Positions 3,309 to 60,730 of a stretch of 64,000 nt of DNA are shown piece after piece. The DNA lies in NCBI RefSeq assembly GCF_988243305.1, contig NZ_OZ547136.1. One strand, given 5' to 3'. The stretch's first letter is position 1. Every line of letters starts with the position of its first letter. Below the pieces are notes generated by a model. It was given only the letters and a program-made list of their open reading frames with translations. It searched no databases and was not told the DNA's origin. The position numbers and the translations under genes are program-made.

Positions 3309-4202
<894 letters not shown>

Positions 4203-8354: not shown

Positions 8355-8502
8355 CTGGTTCGTCCGTGAAAATAAGAGTCACAGATTCGACCTTCCGGGC
8401 TAACGATTGTTCTGTAGAGAAAATGTCCAGAAGCGGATAAAAAATTCCTGAACAACGTGTGAGTTTCAGACGGGTGATAACGTATAAAAAGTGCTCGAAC
8501 AG

Positions 8503-8606
8503 TCCCCTCTCCCCTTTGGGGAGAGGGTTAGGGTGAGGGGAACAGGCCAGCTCCGGGGCGAATATTTACCCTCACCCCGACCCTCTCCCTGAAAGGGCGA
8601 GGGGGA
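8503..8606. repeat. GC-rich palindromic intergenic repeat cluster (BIME/boxC-like), containing the unit GGGGAGAGGGTTAGGGTGAGGG and its inverted partner
   Basis: cccctctcccc/ggggagaggg hairpin and ccctcaccccgaccctctccctgaaagggcgaggggg read directly; the same 37-bp module recurs at 24114-24150. Confidence 0.6.
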
Positions 8607-8684
8607 AAAACATGCCCGCAGTGACGAGTGAGCCACTTTGCCTGCACTCTCAAACTCCCGGACAAGCCGGGAGTTTGGAGTAGG

Positions 8685-21134: not shown

Positions 21135-23786
21135 TTAGCCGGTATTACGCATACCTGCCGCAATCCCGGCAATAGTGACCATTAACGCCTGCTCGACGCG
21201 AGGATCCGGTTCCTGGCCTTCTTTTTCTGCCTGGCGGGAGCGGTGCAGCAACTCGGCCTGCAATACGTTCAGCGGGTCGGTGTAAATATTCCGTAGCTGA
21301 ATAGACTCTGCAATCCACGGCAGATCGGCCATCAGATGGGAATCGTTGGCAATCGCCAGCACCACTTTGATGTCTTCTTCTTGCAGGTTGCGTAACTCTT
21401 TACCTAACGGCCACAGTGCTTTGTCTACCAGGCGTTGGTCATAGTATTCCGCCAGCCACAGGTCTGCTTTGGCGAAGACCATCTCCAGCATGCCGAGACG
21501 CGTCGAGAAGAATGGCCAGTCGCGGCACATGGCTTCCAGCTCGCTCTGTTTGCCATCTTCGACCACTTTTTGCAGCGCTGTACCTGCACCCAGCCAGGCG
21601 GGGAGCATCAGGCGGTTTTGCGTCCAGGCGAAGATCCACGGAATGGCGCGCAGCGACTCGACGCCGCCAGTCGGGCGACGTTTCGCCGGACGTGAACCCA
21701 ACGGCAGTTTGCCCAGTTCCTGTTCCGGCGTAGCGGAGCGGAAGTAAGGCACAAAATCTTTGTTTTCACGCACGTAGCCACGGTAGAGATCGCAGGAGAT
21801 GACTGACAGTTCATCCATAATGCGACGCCAGCTCTCTTTCGGCTCAGGTGGTGGCAGCAGGTTAGCTTCCAGAATCGCCCCGGTGTACAGCGACAGGCTG
21901 CTGACGGTGATTTCTGGCAGACCATATTTAAAGCGGATCATCTCGCCCTGTTCAGTCACGCGCAGGCCACCTTTCAGGCTTCCTGGCGGTTGTGACAGCA
22001 GCGCCGCATGAGCAGGTGCGCCGCCGCGACCAATGGAACCGCCGCGACCGTGGAACAGAGTCAGTTCAATACCCGCTTTTTCGCAGGTTTTGATTAATGC
22101 ATCCTGTGCCTGATATTGCGCCCAGGAAGCCGCCATCACGCCCGCATCTTTTGCTGAGTCGGAATAGCCAATCATCACCATCTGTTTGCCCTGAATCAGG
22201 CCGCGATACCAGTCGATATTCAGCAGCTGGGTCATGACATCGTTGGCGTTGTTCAGGTCATCGAGAGTTTCAAACAGCGGAGCAACCGGCATCGCAAACC
22301 CGATACCCGCTTCTTTCAGCAGCAGGTGGACAGCCAGCACGTCGGACGGCGTTTTCGCCATCGAGATCACGTAGGCGGCAATGGAGCCTTGCGGCGCTTC
22401 GGCAATCACCTGGCAGGTATCGAGCACTTCGCGCGTTTCGGCGCTTGGTTGCCAGTTGCGCGGCAGAAGCGGACGTTTGGAATTCAGTTCGCGGATCAGG
22501 AACGCCTGTTTGTCGGCCTCTGACCAGCTTTCGTAGTCGCCGATACCGAGGTAGCGGGTCAGCTCGCCCAATGCTTCGGTATGGCGGGTGCTCTCCTGAC
22601 GGATATCAATACGGACCAGCGGTACGCCGAAACATTTCACGCGGCGCAGGGTGTCGAGCAGATCGCCGTTGGCGATAATACCCATGCCACATGCCTGAAG
22701 GGACTGGTAGCAAGCGTAGAGCGGTTCCCACAGTTCTTCGTTTTGTGTCAGCAGGCCTTCTGGTTTTGGCAGTTCTTCGCCTTTCAGGCGCGCTTCCAGC
22801 CATGCCTGTGTCGCCATCAGGCGAGAACGCAGGTTTTTCATCAGATAGCGATACGGCTCTGCGGCACCTTCTTCGCCAACCAGCGCCAGCAGTTCAGGGG
22901 TCGCTTCAACCATCGACAGTTCAGAAACCAGCACCTGAATATCTTTCAGGAACAGATCGGTGGCTTTCCAGCGGCTGAGCAGCAGGACGTGGCGGGTGAT
23001 ATCGGCAGTGACGTTCGGGTTGCCGTCGCGGTCACCGCCCATCCACGAGGTAAAACGGACCGGAACAAATTCAACGGGCAGTTTGTAGCCGAGATTCTCT
23101 TCCAGTTGTTCGTTCAGTTCGCGCAGGTAATTCGGTACGCCTTGCCACAGGCTGTTTTCTACTACGGCAAAGCCCCATTTGGCTTCATCTACCGGGCTTG
23201 GACGCAGCTTACGGATTTCATCGGTATGCCATGACTGGGCGATCAACTGGCGCAGGCGGCGCATCAGCTGGTTGTGTTCGTAGTCAGCGATATCTTTGTT
23301 ATCGAGCTGTTTTAAGCAGGCGTTCACTTCCACCATTTTGTGGATCAGTGTACGACGGGTAATTTCGGTTGGGTGAGCCGTGAGGACCAGTTCCAGCGAC
23401 AGCGATTCCACTGCTTTTTTGATGGTGTCTTCGCTCAGTTCCGGCTGGTTTTTCAGTTTACGCAGGGTGCGGGCGATCACTTCCGGGTTGCTGGCAGCTT
23501 CGCCTTTCGGCGAAATGCTGTGGTATTGCTCGGCGGTGTTGGCCAGGTTCAGGAACTGACTAAACGCACGCGCAACGGGCAGCAGCTCGTCGTTCGACAA
23601 ATTTTGTAAGGTGGTGAGCAACTCCTGGCGGTTAGCATCATTGCCAGCGCGTGAAGATTTCGACAACTTACGGATAGTTTCTACGCGTTCAAGAATGTGT
23701 TCTCCTAACGCATCCTTGATGGTTTCTCCCAGCACTTTGCCGAGCATACTGACATTACTACGCAATGCGGAATATTGTTCGTTCAT
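21135..23786 (-). CDS. ppc: Phosphoenolpyruvate carboxylase
   Basis: 883-aa [27 protein letters not shown]...; C-terminus ...MRNTG. Confidence 0.96.
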
Positions 23787-24113
23787 ATTACCCCAGACAC
23801 CCCATCTTATCGTTTGATAGCCCTGTATCCTTCACGTCGCATTGGCGCGAATATGCTCGGGCTTTGCTTTTCGTCGTCTTTTATAAAGCCACGTAAAAGC
23901 GGTGACGTCAAATGCTGCGAAATCGCTTCAGCAAACGAATAAATAGCAGGAATTTACGCCATTAAATTCACGACGCTTTAAATAAGCGTAACTTATGGGA
24001 ATGTTAAAAAATCGCCTCAATTAACACCAAAGAGTTATGAGTTGTAGTTACCATTTGGGCATCATTTGAGATTGCTGACAAACTCGCTTACGGGTCAGTA
24101 TGGGCACGGTTTT

Positions 24114-24150
24114 CCCCTCACCCTAACCCTCTCCCCGAAGGGGCGAGGGG
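24114..24150. repeat. Second copy of the 37-bp GC-rich module CCCTCACCC(TA)ACCCTCTCCCC-GAA-GGGGCGAGGGG
   Basis: Near-identical to 8570-8606 in the same orientation; lies in the ppc-argE intergenic region. Confidence 0.6.
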
Positions 24151-24197
24151 ACTGTCCGTGCGCTTGCATGGCTTTGTCATCAGCCTGATTTGCTTTT

Positions 24198-25349
24198 TTA
24201 ATGCCAGCAAAAATGGTGAATTACCTGGGTTATCAGTTCGCGGGTGGGCTTGATAAACCGTGTTTCCAGATATTCATCAGGTTGATGAGCCTGATTAATT
24301 GAGCCAGGGCCCAGAACCAGCGTCGGGCATAACGTTTGAATAAACGGCGCTTCGGTACAGTAATTCACCACTTCGGTCTTTGCTCCGAGCAATTTCTCAA
24401 CCACTTCAACCAGTTGATGATTCGGTGGGCATTCATAGCCAGGGATCGGCGGATGCAGCTCGTCGACCGTCAGACGACCCGGCCAGCGTTCGCTCACCGG
24501 AGCCAGCGCATCGTTGAGTAGGCCATTAAGTTCATTGAGTGTCATGCCCGGCAGCGGACGAATATCCATATGCAACTCACAGCAAGCACAAATACGGTTA
24601 GAAGCGTCGCCACCGTGAATATGCCCGAGGTTGAGCGTGGGGTATGGCACGGTAAACGCTTCGTAGTGATAACGTTCTTTCAGGTTATCGCGCAATTGCA
24701 AAATATGCCCGATGGCGTCGTGCATTAGTTCGATAGCGTTAACTCCGCGTGCTGGATCGCTGGAGTGCCCCGACTGGCCCTGAATACGGATGGCGTTAGA
24801 GATATGACCTTTATGTGCGCGTACCGGTTGTAGTGACGTCGGTTCGCCAATGATGGCGCAATCCGGGCGCAGGGCAGTAGTTTCGGCAAAATAACGCGCT
24901 CCGGCCATACTGGTTTCTTCATCGGCAGTCGCCAGAATGTAGAGCGGTTTTTTCAGTTTCGTGACGTCGACATCGCGTAGCGCATCAAGGATAAACGCAA
25001 AAAAGCCTTTCATGTCGGCGGTGCCTAAGCCGTAAAGCTTGCCGTCATGCTCCGTCAGTGTAAACGGATCGCGCGTCCAGCGTCCGTCATCAAATGGCAC
25101 CGTATCGGTATGCCCCGCCAGCAACAAGCCGCCAGCCCCCTGTCCGGTACTGGCCAGCATATTAAATTTGTTGCGAGTTCCTGGCACAGGCTGCACTTCC
25201 ACATTGAAGCCTAAATTTTTAAACCAGTCCGCCAGCAGAGTGATTAAATCTGCATTGCTTTGATCGAGTGCCTCTTCCGTGGCGCTTATTGAAGGTGTGG
25301 CAATCAGAGCACGGTAAATCTCGATAAATGGCGGTAATTTATTTTTCAT
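24198..25349 (-). CDS. argE: Acetylornithine deacetylase
   Basis: ORF 24198..25388; ATG at 25347-25349 gives 383 aa ([23 protein letters not shown]...); M20 peptidase family. Confidence 0.94.
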
Positions 25350-28780: not shown

Positions 28781-28896
28781 AAAAAAAGCGGATCCTGGAG
28801 ATCCGCAAAAGTTCACGTTGGCTTTAGTTATTCGAGTTGAGAAACTCTCGAAACGGGCAGTGACTTCAAGGGTTAAAAGAGGTGCCGCTCCGTTTC
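28781..28896 (-). ncRNA. oxyS: OxyS small regulatory RNA
   Basis: Minus strand reads GAAACGGAGCGGCACCUCUUUUAACCCUUGAAGUCACUGCCCGUUUCGAGAGUUUCUCAACUCGAAUAACUAAAGCCAACGUGAACUUUUGCGGAUCUCCAGGAUCCGC plus a U tract, matching OxyS as recalled; divergent from oxyR. Confidence 0.85.
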
Positions 28897-33773: not shown

Positions 33774-33901
33774 GATGTATCCTGAAAAATTAAAGTACGC
33801 GGCGATTGTAGGGATTGCTCATCAGATGTCCAGATCTTGATGAATTCCTATTTGTGAGCTACGTCTGGACAGTAACTTGTTACAACCTGTAGCATCCACT
33901 T

Positions 33902-34141
33902 GCCGGTCCTGTGAGTTAATAGGGAATCCAGTGCGAATCTGGAGCTGACGCGCAGCGGTAAGGAAAGGTGCGATGATTGCGTTATGCGGACACTGCCATC
34001 TGGTGGGAAGTCATCATCTCTTAGTATCTTAGATACCCCTCCAAGCCCGAAGACCTGCCGGCTAACGTCGCATCTGGTTCTCATCATCGCGTAATATTGA
34101 TGAAACCTGCGGCATCCTTCTTCTATTGTGGATGCTTTACA
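33902..34141 (+). promoter_or_regulatory. btuB leader containing the adenosylcobalamin (B12) riboswitch
   Basis: Sequence GCCGGUCCUGUGAGUUAAUAGGGAAUCCAGUGCGAAUCUGGAGCUGACGCGCAGCGGUAAGGAAAGGUGCGAUGAUUGCG... matches the btuB leader as recalled and lies directly upstream of the btuB start. Confidence 0.8.
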
Positions 34142-37153: not shown

Positions 37154-38695
<1,542 letters not shown>

Positions 38696-38780
38696 CCTTA
38701 AAGAAGCGTTCTTTGAAGTGCTCACACAGATTGTCTGATAGAAAGTGAAAAGCAAGGCGTCTTGCGAAGCAGACTGACAC

Positions 38781-38856
38781 GTCCCCTTCGTCTAGAGGCC
38801 CAGGACACCGCCCTTTCACGGCGGTAACAGGGGTTCGAATCCCCTAGGGGACGCCA
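38781..38856 (+). tRNA. gltT: tRNA-Glu (UUC) in the 16S-23S spacer
   Basis: GTCCCCTTCGTCTAGAGGCCCAGGACACCGCCCTTTCACGGCGGTAACAGGGGTTCGAATCCCCTAGGGGACGCCA; 76 nt. Confidence 0.95.
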
Positions 38857-39049
38857 CTTGCTGGTTTGTGAGTGAAAGTCACCTGCCTTGATATCTCAAA
38901 ACTCATCTTCGGGTGATGTTTGAGATATTTGCTCTTTAAAAATCTGGATCAAGCTGAAAATTGAAACACTGAACAACGAAAGTTGTTCGTGAGTCTCTCA
39001 AATTTTCGCAACACGATGATGAGTCGAAAGAAACATCTTCGGGTTGTGA

Positions 39050-41953
<2,904 letters not shown>

Positions 41954-42045
41954 ACAACGCCGAAGCTGTTTTGGCGGATGAGAGAAGATTTTCAGCCTGA
42001 TACAGATTAAATCAGAACGCAGAAGCGGTCTGATGAAACAGAATT

Positions 42046-42165
42046 TGCCTGGCGGCCTTAGCGCGGTGGTCCCACCTGACCCCATGCCGAACTCAGAAGT
42101 GAAACGCCGTAGCGCCGATGGTAGTGTGGGGTCTCCCCATGCGAGAGTAGGGAACTGCCAGGCAT
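42046..42165 (+). rRNA. rrfB: 5S ribosomal RNA
   Basis: TGCCTGGCGGCC...GGGAACTGCCAGGCAT; 120 nt. Confidence 0.97.
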
Positions 42166-60568: not shown

Positions 60569-60730
60569 CAAAACCCACCTTAAGGTGGGTTTCGCCAGAG
60601 AATTATCTCTGGTATTCAGAACGCCATTACCGGACTTTGCCTTGACCTTGCGATAATCGCAGGTTGCGGGATGTCTGAATTTCTTCAGTCTGCTGCATCC
60701 TGGAAGATGAGAACATGTGTTCTTATTTTC
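60566..60730 (-). ncRNA. sroH: Candidate small RNA (consistent with SroH) bounded by a sigma70-like promoter and an intrinsic terminator
   Basis: On the minus strand: -35 TTGTAA (plus 60760-60765), 17-bp spacer, -10 TATGAT (plus 60737-60742); about 165 nt downstream is the hairpin aaacccacc-ttaa-ggtgggttt followed by UUGUUAUUUU, overlapping the yjaZ stop. I recall SroH as ~161 nt and adjacent to yjaZ (htrC). Confidence 0.5.

What the first reader, a model, noticed from the sequence alone, without database searches (positions are those of the whole stretch)
24114..24150. Same 37-bp GC-rich module recurs in the ppc-argE intergenic region
ccctcaccctaaccctctccccgaaggggcgagggg at 24114-24150 matches 8570-8606 (ccctcaccccgaccctctccctgaaagggcgaggggg) at ~33 of 37 positions in the same orientation, about 15.5 kb away. 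Both copies lie downstream of convergent or terminating genes. Recurrence confirms a dispersed repeat family, which could support recombination or act as a transcript-stabilising element.
Basis: seen in the sequence. Interest (0 to 1): 0.3.

Follow-up and report, generated by a model that had tools for sequence, protein, structure and literature searches.

The report
BoxC repeat in ppc–argE spacer
The 37-base GC-rich module is a copy of BoxC (also called PIT or TMECO), a dispersed E. coli repeat known since 1992 that can fold into a hairpin or triple helix, so the finding itself is ordinary; following it up suggested that such repeats are the end-pieces of a small nuclease (DUF559/YcjD) gene cassette.

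Summary
All three fit exactly the published pattern of BoxC / PIT / TMECO elements (Holder et al. 2015, PMC4666352). The ppc-argE copy is a type A unit. The 8504/8569 pair is the canonical inverted type A + type B doublet.

The family occurs in 5408 of 5426 complete E. coli genomes, with a median of 18 detectable copies. Both BoxC sites in the window are strain-variable: only 284 (ppc-argE) and 640 (yijF-gldA) genomes carry these alleles. K-12, O157 and the other sampled genomes have REP/BIME repeats in the same slots.

The ppc-argE copy is a "solo": a doublet that lost its B unit and spacer but kept both outer flanks (about 24065-24188). Published tests found no promoter or terminator activity. 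A role in stabilising transcripts is untested.

New lead: genes of the DUF559 (YcjD) nuclease family are flanked by, or end inside, BoxC-like units in enterobacteria, Burkholderiales, Caulobacter, Salinisphaera and Methylomirabilota. E. coli genomes with ycjD carry about five times more BoxC copies than those without.

The parts
24114..24150 (-). BoxC / TMECO core, type A with one mismatched triplet. Read on the minus strand it is CCCCTCGCCCC-TTC-GGGGAGAGGG-TTA-GGGTGAGGGG. This is the finding itself.
   Evidence: Exact match to the published pattern CCCTCNCCC N3-6 GGGNGAGGG N3 GGGNGAGGG. It differs by one loop base from K-12 TMECO no. 23 in Table 1 of PMC4666352. Block pairing is shown.
24065..24188 (-). 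Extended 'solo' BoxC element: the A-side outer flank (24151-24188, ...GTCATCAGCCTGA), the core, and a B-side outer flank (24065-24113, TTTGAGATTGCTGACAAAC...GGGCACGGTTTT).
   Evidence: The flanks align with those of the yihS-yihR copy and of K-12 doublets. Pairwise alignment to the ygfF-gcvP doublet shows the solo equals a doublet with about 67 nt deleted (B core plus spacer) between GAGGGG(G)AA repeats.
24033..24197 (.). Strain-variable segment between the conserved ppc upstream region and the argE stop codon. The sampled other genomes have 1-3 REP units (BIME) here. Positions 24049-24069 resemble the linker between REP units in the K-12 BIME.
   Evidence: Only 284 of 5426 genomes cover at least 80% of a 601-nt query. 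Alignment of six alleles of 301-597 bp.
8504..8540 (+). BoxC core, type A with perfect triplets (CCCCTCTCCCC-TTT-GGGGAGAGGG-TTA-GGGTGAGGGG). It is the left unit of the inverted doublet.
8541..8568 (.). Doublet spacer (AACAGGCCAGCTCCGGGGCGAATATTTA), conserved among E. coli doublets.
   Evidence: Alignment of four doublets.
8569..8606 (-). BoxC core, type B with one mismatch. On the minus strand it reads CCCTCGCCC-TTTCA-GGGAGAGGG-TCG-GGGTGAGGG. On the plus strand, CCC TCA CCC CGA CCC TCT CCC TGA is the same sequence that encodes the PSPRPSP-stop tail of YcjD-family proteins in other genera.
   Evidence: (compare K-12 nos. 10, 12).
8467..8654 (+). Extended A+B doublet with conserved outer flanks; a long imperfect palindrome. 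Positions 8471-8649 are the strain-variable segment, which replaces a REP pair (BIME) in K-12, O157 and a third sampled strain.
   Evidence: 640 of 5426 genomes carry this allele. Allele alignment, doublet alignment. Predicted fold -70.6 / -72.3 kcal/mol, z -5.5 / -6.1.
24198..25349 (-). argE. Its transcript would read into the G-rich strand of the BoxC, which starts 47 nt after the stop codon.
   Evidence: ORF list. Annotation of identical DNA in NZ_CP151026.1.
21135..23786 (-). ppc. The region upstream of it (23787-24032) is conserved in all six alleles compared.

Best explanation
The module is a BoxC repeat (synonyms: PIT element, TMECO). It is a 34-37 nt non-coding unit made of one C-rich block and two G-rich blocks.

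The copy at 24114-24150 is a solo type A unit. It sits inside a ~124-bp element that keeps both outer flanks of the canonical A+B inverted doublet, such as the one at 8504-8606. It is therefore a decayed doublet, not an independent 37-bp insertion (shown by alignment).

It occupies a permissive intergenic slot, 3' of argE and upstream of the conserved ppc upstream region. In most E. coli genomes this allele is absent, and every other allele sampled holds REP/BIME repeats instead. No sampled genome was empty at the junction tested.

The most likely reading is selfish or neutral repeat DNA with no locus-specific function.

Known or inferred properties:
- As single-stranded DNA it folds into a very stable hairpin or intrastrand triplex (published in vitro work; not testable here).
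- This folding can stall polymerases and promote slippage and deletion. That would fit both the doublet-to-solo deletion between GAGGGG(G)AA repeats and the high variability of these loci (inferred).
- On argE mRNA it provides a strong 3' stem-loop that may incidentally slow 3' exonucleases, as REP does (inferred, untested).
For: Identity:
- All three copies match the published pattern exactly. They carry the A (TTA) and B (TCG) loop types and include an inverted A+B pair.

Family size:
- 5408 of 5426 genomes, median 18 copies.

Decayed doublet:
- Flank homology and a clean internal deletion relative to K-12 doublets.

Dispensable and variable:
- The window alleles are present in 284 and 640 of 5426 genomes.
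- REP/BIME repeats occupy the same slot in the other genomes sampled.
- 0 genomes have the tested empty junction.
- Published excess variability at TMECO loci.

No signal function:
- No terminator-like site on the transcribed strand, no promoter-like site in the element and no Rfam family.
- Published negative promoter and terminator tests.

Structure:
- The block pattern is compatible with C-G*G triplets with one mismatch.
- In vitro triplex with Tm 70-82 C.
- The 98-nt argE 3' region folds at -44.6 kcal/mol, z -4.3.
Against: - Triplex formation in vivo was not detected by DMS footprinting (PMC4666352) and cannot be computed here.
- The isolated 37-mer hairpin is not significantly more stable than composition-matched shuffles (z -1.3 to -1.9).
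- Because no empty site was found, insertion cannot be told apart from allele replacement by recombination.
- 'No function' is an argument from dispensability. The slot always holds some structured repeat (BoxC or REP), which could mean a structured 3' element is selected there.
Confidence: 0.85

Rival explanations
1. BoxC units are the terminal inverted repeats of a small DUF559 (YcjD-family, Vsr-like PD-(D/E)XK) nuclease cassette. E. coli A+B doublets are gene-less, MITE/REPIN-like derivatives, and solos such as the ppc-argE copy are further decay products. The nuclease recognises the folded repeat and spreads or maintains the copies. This extends the best explanation rather than contradicting it.
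For: Non-enterobacterial loci:
- 9 of 9 DUF559 loci examined have BoxC-like units within 35 nt of a gene end. Seven are flanked as unit-gene-inverted unit. They come from Burkholderiales, a Methylomirabilota MAG, Caulobacter, Salinisphaera and others.
- In the fetched Mitsuaria DNA, all 3 DUF559 ORFs abut such units.

Enterobacteria:
- The gene's last codons and stop (PSPRPSP-TGA) are a type B BoxC, followed by a type A unit. This holds in three different genomic neighbourhoods.
- 67 of 120 YcjD homologues carry the PSPxPSP tail.

Loop types:
- They match the model: TTA or CTA at the 5' unit of L149, L151 and L153; CGG at the 3' unit of L149 and L153, but TTG in L151.

Copy number within E. 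coli:
- ycjD-positive genomes have a median of 21 matching places, against 4 in ycjD-negative genomes (n = 37 and 22, p = 1e-9, not corrected for phylogeny).

Other support:
- Salmonella, reported to lack TMECO, is absent from the 120 best YcjD homologues.
- DUF559 is grouped with Vsr and a homing endonuclease. YcjD matches PDB 3HRL at E = 1e-27.
- An independent study found DUF559 enriched among genes carrying inverted repeats.
Against: - There is no biochemical evidence.
- The enterobacterial genes lack an upstream unit.
- The copy-number correlation follows phylogroups: ycjD is found in A/B1/C, per PMC12817139.
- The window's own lineage lacks ycjD at the fabI-sapF locus (the closest genome has eefRABCD there), and no DUF559 ORF was found in the 64-kb window or in the 125 kb of that genome examined. 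Yet it has BoxC at loci that K-12 lacks.
- O157 genomes lack ycjD and still have about 12 copies.
- No target-site duplication or empty site was found.
- The repeats could instead be insertion hot spots or regulatory structures for the gene.
Confidence: 0.5
2. The element is a functional 3' RNA element: a transcript stabiliser or terminator for argE (and gldA), equivalent to the REP stabilisers it replaces.
For: - It lies 47 nt after the argE stop on the transcribed strand.
- A strong predicted stem-loop forms together with the flanks.
- The same slot holds REP hairpins in the other strains sampled and was never empty at the tested junction.
Against: - No U-tract and no terminator-like hit on the minus strand.
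- The yijF-gldA doublet lies downstream of a separate hairpin that follows the gldA stop codon, seen by eye, so it may be little transcribed.
- Published tests found no terminator or promoter activity and no effect on RNA polymerase.
- The family shows no strand or position bias relative to genes.
Confidence: 0.15
3. The similarity is chance, arising from low-complexity G/C runs.
For: The sequence is strongly biased in composition, with C and G runs.
Against: - Zero hits in shuffled sequence.
- 32-35 identical positions in register, including the loops.
- Tens of thousands of copies with conserved flanks.
Confidence: 0.01
4. It is a member of the REP/BIME family.
For: It is intergenic and palindromic, and it occupies the slots that BIMEs occupy in K-12. 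REPs lie next to several K-12 BoxC copies.
Against: The sequence is unrelated to the REP units seen in the alternative alleles (GCCGGATGCGGCG...CGCCTTATCCGGCCTAC). It also has a three-block rather than a two-arm architecture.
Confidence: 0.01
5. It acts as a G-quadruplex-forming regulatory element.
For: The G-rich strand GGGGAGAGGGTTAGGGTGAGGGG is a canonical four-tract G4 motif. The three BoxC copies are the only such motifs in the window.
Against: Published NMR showed a triplex, not a G4, for the full unit, because the C-rich block competes for pairing. No regulatory effect is known.
Confidence: 0.03

Closest known systems
BoxC (Bergler et al. 1992) = PIT elements (Hoyne et al. 2000; Hoyne & Maher 2002) = TMECO (Holder et al. 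2015, PMC4666352)
   Same: Exact sequence pattern, length, type A and B loops, inverted A+B doublets, intergenic location, multi-copy dispersal in E. coli, and association with variable loci.
   Different: Nothing essential differs. These two loci (ppc-argE, yijF-gldA) are not among the 23 K-12 copies in Table 1. The published descriptions deal with the 34-37 nt core. Here the conserved unit extends to about 124 bp (solo) and about 190 bp (doublet).
REP/BIME elements and REPINs with their RAYT (TnpA_REP) transposases
   Same: Short GC-rich palindromic intergenic repeats, often in inverted doublets, highly polymorphic between strains, and found in the same intergenic slots. A single protein gene flanked by the repeats exists for both: RAYT for REP, and on the present evidence DUF559 for BoxC-like repeats.
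   Different: The sequence is unrelated and the architecture has three blocks (able to form a triplex). The candidate partner protein has a PD-(D/E)XK (Vsr-like) fold, not an HUH Y1 transposase fold. Mobility has not been demonstrated.
MITEs (for example ERIC/IRU, RUP, Correia elements)
   Same: Non-coding, under 200 bp, a long imperfect palindrome with inverted ends, multi-copy, and presence/absence polymorphism.
   Different: No target-site duplication or empty site was found. No transposase is known.
Vsr-like homing endonucleases (I-Bth0305I, PDB 3R3P) and DUF559 protein 3HRL
   Same: YcjD shares the DUF559/Vsr-like nuclease domain. A selfish-element lifestyle has precedent for this fold.
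   Different: The DUF559 cassettes are free-standing and flanked by repeats, not encoded in an intron. No cleavage activity or target is known.

Membership tests
BoxC / PIT / TMECO | Sequence pattern 5'-CCCTCNCCC N3-6 GGGNGAGGG N3 GGGNGAGGG-3' (34-37 nt) | tested here: met
   Exact regular-expression matches at 24115-24149 (-), 8505-8539 (+) and 8569-8603 (-), and nowhere else in the window. Pattern taken from PMC4666352.
BoxC / PIT / TMECO | Second loop TTA (type A) or CCG/TCG (type B); near-identity to K-12 copies | tested here: met
   24114 and 8504 are type A (TTA) and 8569 is type B (TCG). Each is 0-2 differences from units in K-12 Table 1.
BoxC / PIT / TMECO | Frequent inverted pairs that always combine a type A with a type B unit | tested here: met
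   8504-8540 (A) and 8569-8606 (B) are inverted and 28 nt apart. The spacer and flanks are homologous to three K-12 doublets. The 24114 copy is a solo, like 13 of the 23 K-12 copies.
BoxC / PIT / TMECO | Always intergenic; many dispersed copies per E. coli genome, with strain-variable number | tested here: met
   Both sites are intergenic. 85,241 places in 5408 of 5426 genomes, median 18, range 1-31.
BoxC / PIT / TMECO | The single strand folds into a purine-motif intrastrand triplex | not testable with these tools
   Only Watson-Crick folding can be computed. The block composition allows C-G*G triplets with one mismatch. In vitro CD/NMR evidence is published.
REP / BIME | REP consensus palindrome (GCCGGATGCGGCG...CGCCTTATCCGGCCTAC type) | tested here: not met
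   The REP units in the alternative alleles at both loci do not align with the BoxC segments.
Intrinsic (Rho-independent) terminator | GC-rich hairpin followed directly by a U/T run on the transcribed strand | tested here: not met
   No terminator-like site on the minus strand in 23700-24300. The BoxC is followed by GAAAACCG.
MITE | Terminal inverted repeats, target-site duplication, and filled versus empty sites | tested here: inconclusive
   The doublet is a long imperfect palindrome whose outer ends match at 12 of 17 positions (my own count from the consensus). No empty site was found in 5426 genomes, so no target-site duplication can be defined.
Repeat family with a cognate flanked gene (REPIN/RAYT-like logic), here DUF559/YcjD | A protein gene flanked by inverted copies of the same repeat that is dispersed gene-less in the genome | tested here: met
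   7 of 9 non-enterobacterial DUF559 loci, plus 2 Mitsuaria paralogues, are flanked on both sides. Enterobacterial ycjD genes end inside a type B unit that is followed by a type A unit.
Repeat family with a cognate flanked gene (REPIN/RAYT-like logic), here DUF559/YcjD | The protein binds, cleaves or mobilises the repeat | not testable with these tools
   Only the fold assignment is available (Pfam DUF559 at E = 1e-38 to 1e-49; PDB 3HRL at E = 1e-27).

The most novel reading that the evidence does not exclude
BoxC/TMECO units are the 5' (type A) and 3' (type B) terminal inverted repeats of a compact DUF559 (YcjD-family, Vsr-like) nuclease cassette found across several bacterial phyla. The dispersed E. 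coli A+B doublets are gene-less derivatives of that cassette, and solos like the ppc-argE copy are decayed doublets. The nuclease acts on the folded repeat to spread or maintain the copies. This would give BoxC, whose origin and function have been open since 1992, the same kind of explanation that RAYT transposases gave REP.

My sub-estimates:
- The gene-repeat association is real and general: about 0.85.
- E. coli doublets derive from the cassette: about 0.55.
- Present-day mobilisation in trans by YcjD: about 0.3.
Probability: 0.5. Interest if true: 0.7.

Novelty: already known. Interest (0 to 1): 0.35.

Why it matters
As found, it matters little. It is one more copy of a repeat family catalogued in E. 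coli for three decades, at a locus where strains differ.

Two things add some value:
- Both BoxC sites in this window are exact alternatives to REP/BIME arrays in other strains. No tested genome is empty there, so certain intergenic slots seem always to be filled by one structured repeat or another.
- The family has had no known origin, partner protein or function. The consistent physical link between BoxC-like units and DUF559 nuclease genes turns that open question into experiments: nuclease assays on folded BoxC DNA, mobilisation assays with and without ycjD, and phylogeny-aware gain/loss analysis. It would also give a function to a large family of proteins of unknown function.

Tried and rejected
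- Rfam scan of the whole window at gathering thresholds: nothing at either locus.
- Promoter and terminator scans: nothing on the relevant strand.
- Search of the Holder et al. supplements for argE, ppc, gldA or yijF, to see whether these loci are among their 63: no gene names held.
- Searches for an empty site with synthetic junction queries at both loci: 0 of 5426 genomes. Only exact junctions of the assumed form would have been found.
- Taxonomic census with the published pattern in 100,044 species genomes: the scan hit its 120-locus limit after about five genomes. It gave examples (Mitsuaria, Methylomirabilota, Contendobacter) but no census.
- First idea for a partner gene, a RAYT/Y1 transposase flanked by the repeats: no such gene turned up. 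The ORFs between inverted copies proved to be DUF559.
- Literature searches for any link between DUF559/ycjD/COG2852 and BoxC or triplex repeats: none found in the searchable library. That library lacks most subscription journals.
- I recall that Bachellier et al. (Genetics 1997) reported boxC insertions at BIME loci, but I could not retrieve the paper. That point rests on memory only.

Full report
**Observation.** The window is E. coli chromosome, running from yijE/yijF/gldA through ppc, argE, argCBH, oxyS and btuB to rrnB.
- The module is present at 24114-24150 (cccctcaccctaaccctctccccgaaggggcgagggg) and at 8569-8606, in the same orientation and 15.5 kb apart. The two share 32 identical positions in ungapped register.
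- A third copy lies inverted at 8504-8540. It is the closest match to the 24114 copy, at 35 of 37 positions.
- Searches with the module gave 2-3 hits in the window and none in 100 dinucleotide-preserving shuffles.

**Identity.** The literature search led to Holder et al. 2015 (PMC4666352).
- That paper treats the 'BoxC' repeat (Bergler 1992), later renamed PIT element (Hoyne and Maher) and TMECO. It gives the pattern CCCTCNCCC N3-6 GGGNGAGGG N3 GGGNGAGGG and lists 23 copies in K-12.
- All three window copies match that pattern exactly, and nothing else in the window does.
- The 24114 copy is type A (second loop TTA) with one mismatched triplet. It is one loop base away from K-12 copy no. 23.
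- 8504 is a perfect type A and 8569 is type B (loop TCG). Together they form the inverted A+B pair that the paper describes as the only kind of pair found.
- A 49-nt query finds the family in 5408 of 5426 complete E. coli genomes. There are 85,241 places in all, with a median of 18 and a range of 1-31 per genome, almost all on chromosomes.
- No Rfam family covers either site.

**Anatomy beyond the 37 nt.**
- The yihS-yihR copy shares flanks with the ppc-argE copy. I therefore fetched 11 K-12 BoxC loci using the Table 1 coordinates and aligned them.
- Four doublets (three from K-12 plus the window's) are homologous over about 190 bp. The layout is an A-side outer flank (...CTGATGACAAAG...GACAGTC), the A core, a conserved 28-29 nt spacer, the B core, and a B-side outer flank (...GGCAC...TTTGTYAGCAATCTCAAA).
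- The ppc-argE element has the A-side flank, the A core and the B-side flank, but no spacer or B core. Aligned to the ygfF-gcvP doublet it shows a single internal gap of about 67 nt, bounded by GAGGGG(G)AA on both sides.
- The 'solo' is therefore a deleted doublet of about 124 bp (24065-24188), not a 37-bp unit.
- Several K-12 solos share the same GAAAAC/GCG junction.

**Polymorphism.**
- Only 284 of 5426 genomes carry the window's ppc-argE allele. The other alleles sampled span 301-597 bp and contain one to three REP units (a BIME) between the same conserved borders.
- At yijF-gldA, 640 genomes have the BoxC doublet. K-12, O157 and a third sampled strain (14EC020) have a REP pair in exactly the same place.
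- Synthetic empty-site junctions matched no genome.
- The window allele retains a stretch (TTGGGCATCATTTGAG) like the linker between REPs in K-12, which suggests a history inside a BIME.
- Three of ten K-12 solos examined abut REPs.
- This agrees with the published excess variability at TMECO loci.

**Function at this locus.**
- All four neighbouring genes are on the minus strand. The BoxC begins 47 nt after the argE stop, and its G-rich strand would be transcribed.
- There is no U-tract, no terminator-like hit on that strand, and no promoter-like hit in the element.
- The 98-nt argE 3' region folds at -44.6 kcal/mol (z -4.3), helped by a flanking GCACGG/CCGUGC pairing. The doublet folds at about -71 kcal/mol (z about -6). 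The isolated 37-mer is no more stable than shuffles of the same composition.
- My best reading is selfish or neutral repeat DNA whose folding causes local instability, with at most an incidental REP-like effect on the argE mRNA 3' end.

**A lead on origin.**
- A scan of species genomes with the published pattern saturated after a few genomes. It showed the same three-block unit, often in inverted pairs, in Mitsuaria (145 copies in 0.9 Mb fetched), a Methylomirabilota MAG and others.
- Looking for genes between inverted copies, I found two paralogous 125-aa ORFs in Mitsuaria, each flanked at identical spacing. They are DUF559 proteins (Pfam E = 1e-38), and all three DUF559 ORFs in the fetched DNA abut such units.
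- E. coli has one DUF559 gene, ycjD. It lies next to the original BoxC of the fabI (envM) locus. Its stop codon sits in loop 1 of a degenerate type B unit. A duplicated remnant of the gene's 3' end follows, and then intact BoxC no. 9.
- YcjD homologues from Enterobacter, Klebsiella, Kluyvera, Phytobacter, Franconibacter and others (59-67% identity) end in PSPRPSP-stop. The DNA for this, CCC TCA CCC CGA CCC TCT CCC TGA, is the type B unit, identical to window 8569-8592. 67 of 120 homologues carry this tail.
- In Enterobacter asburiae and Klebsiella oxytoca the gene lies in different neighbourhoods from E. coli, but it is again followed by a B unit and then an A unit.
- Nine further DUF559 loci from distant taxa all have BoxC-like units within 35 nt of a gene end. 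Four of these loci were chosen because their proteins showed no read-through signature. Seven of the nine are flanked as unit-gene-inverted unit. In three loci the upstream unit carries a TTA or CTA loop; the downstream unit carries CGG in two of them and TTG in the third.
- The Methylomirabilota locus comes from the same MAG that had the dispersed repeats.

**Within E. coli.**
- ycjD is present in phylogroups A, B1 and C. Elsewhere it is replaced by eefRABCD (PMC12817139).
- In an evenly spaced sample, ycjD-positive genomes have a median of 21 BoxC-matching places (range 13-29, n = 37). ycjD-negative genomes have a median of 4 (range 1-20, n = 22). Mann-Whitney p = 1e-9, not corrected for phylogeny.
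- Against a present-day requirement for the nuclease: the genome identical to the window at ppc-argE has eefRABCD at the fabI-sapF locus, with neither ycjD nor a BoxC there. O157 genomes lack ycjD and still have about 12 copies.
- YcjD matches the structure 3HRL (endonuclease-like protein, E = 1e-27). DUF559 is classified with Vsr and with a homing endonuclease.
- An independent survey found DUF559 genes enriched among genes overlapped by inverted repeats.
- I found no paper linking DUF559 to BoxC.

**Verdict.** The finding is a correct observation of a known repeat family, so its novelty is 'already known'. The added value is threefold: the extended anatomy (a solo is a decayed doublet), the BoxC/BIME allelism at both loci, and the DUF559 cassette hypothesis. 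I rate that hypothesis at about 0.5 and consider it experimentally testable.

Noticed in passing
L057 5881-6350, L058 1113-1582, L145 3001-3420, L148 3001-3502, L149-L155, L159-L162; K-12 L137 1700-2270: DUF559 (YcjD-family) nuclease genes are flanked by, or end inside, BoxC-like units in many taxa. Enterobacterial YcjD proteins end in PSPRPSP-stop, which is encoded by a type B BoxC.
   Followed up: yes
window 8471-8649 and 24033-24197 compared with L001, L003-L009: Both BoxC sites in the window are exact allelic alternatives to REP/BIME arrays in K-12, O157 and the other strains sampled. No genome of 5426 had the tested empty junction.
   Followed up: yes
L014-L021, L150 (Methylomirabilota MAG JACPAT01); L022-L128 (Mitsuaria chitosanitabida): The TMECO pattern, reported in proteobacteria, also occurs in a Methylomirabilota (NC10) MAG, as inverted pairs about 30 nt apart as in E. 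coli. In Mitsuaria it reaches at least 145 copies in 0.9 Mb of fetched DNA, with its own conserved 3' flank TCTTCGGGCT.
   Followed up: partly
L160 497-2693: One DUF559 gene in a 3.5-Mb genome sits inside an array of about 22 BoxC-like units in 3.4 kb, arranged as regularly spaced inverted pairs.
   Followed up: no
L010 1115-1621 (strain P377, yijF-gldA region): In one strain an IS621 (IS110-family) transposase gene is annotated just beyond yijF, where similarity to the window ends. IS621 is known to me to target REP sequences.
   Followed up: no
L158 8141-16110 (strain 19KM1831, identical to the window at ppc-argE): This lineage carries the eefRABCD efflux operon between fabI and sapF in place of ycjD and its BoxC units, as described in PMC12817139.
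   Followed up: partly
window 24049-24069 compared with L001 about 3390-3420: TTGGGCATCATTTGAG, beside the BoxC element, resembles the linker between REP units of the K-12 ppc-argE BIME. This hints that the BoxC element entered or recombined within a BIME.
   Followed up: partly
window 28787-28896, 33887-34076, 37154-42163, 60570-60730: Ordinary Rfam features at the expected places: OxyS, the btuB cobalamin riboswitch, the rrnB operon with tRNAs, and sroH.
   Followed up: no
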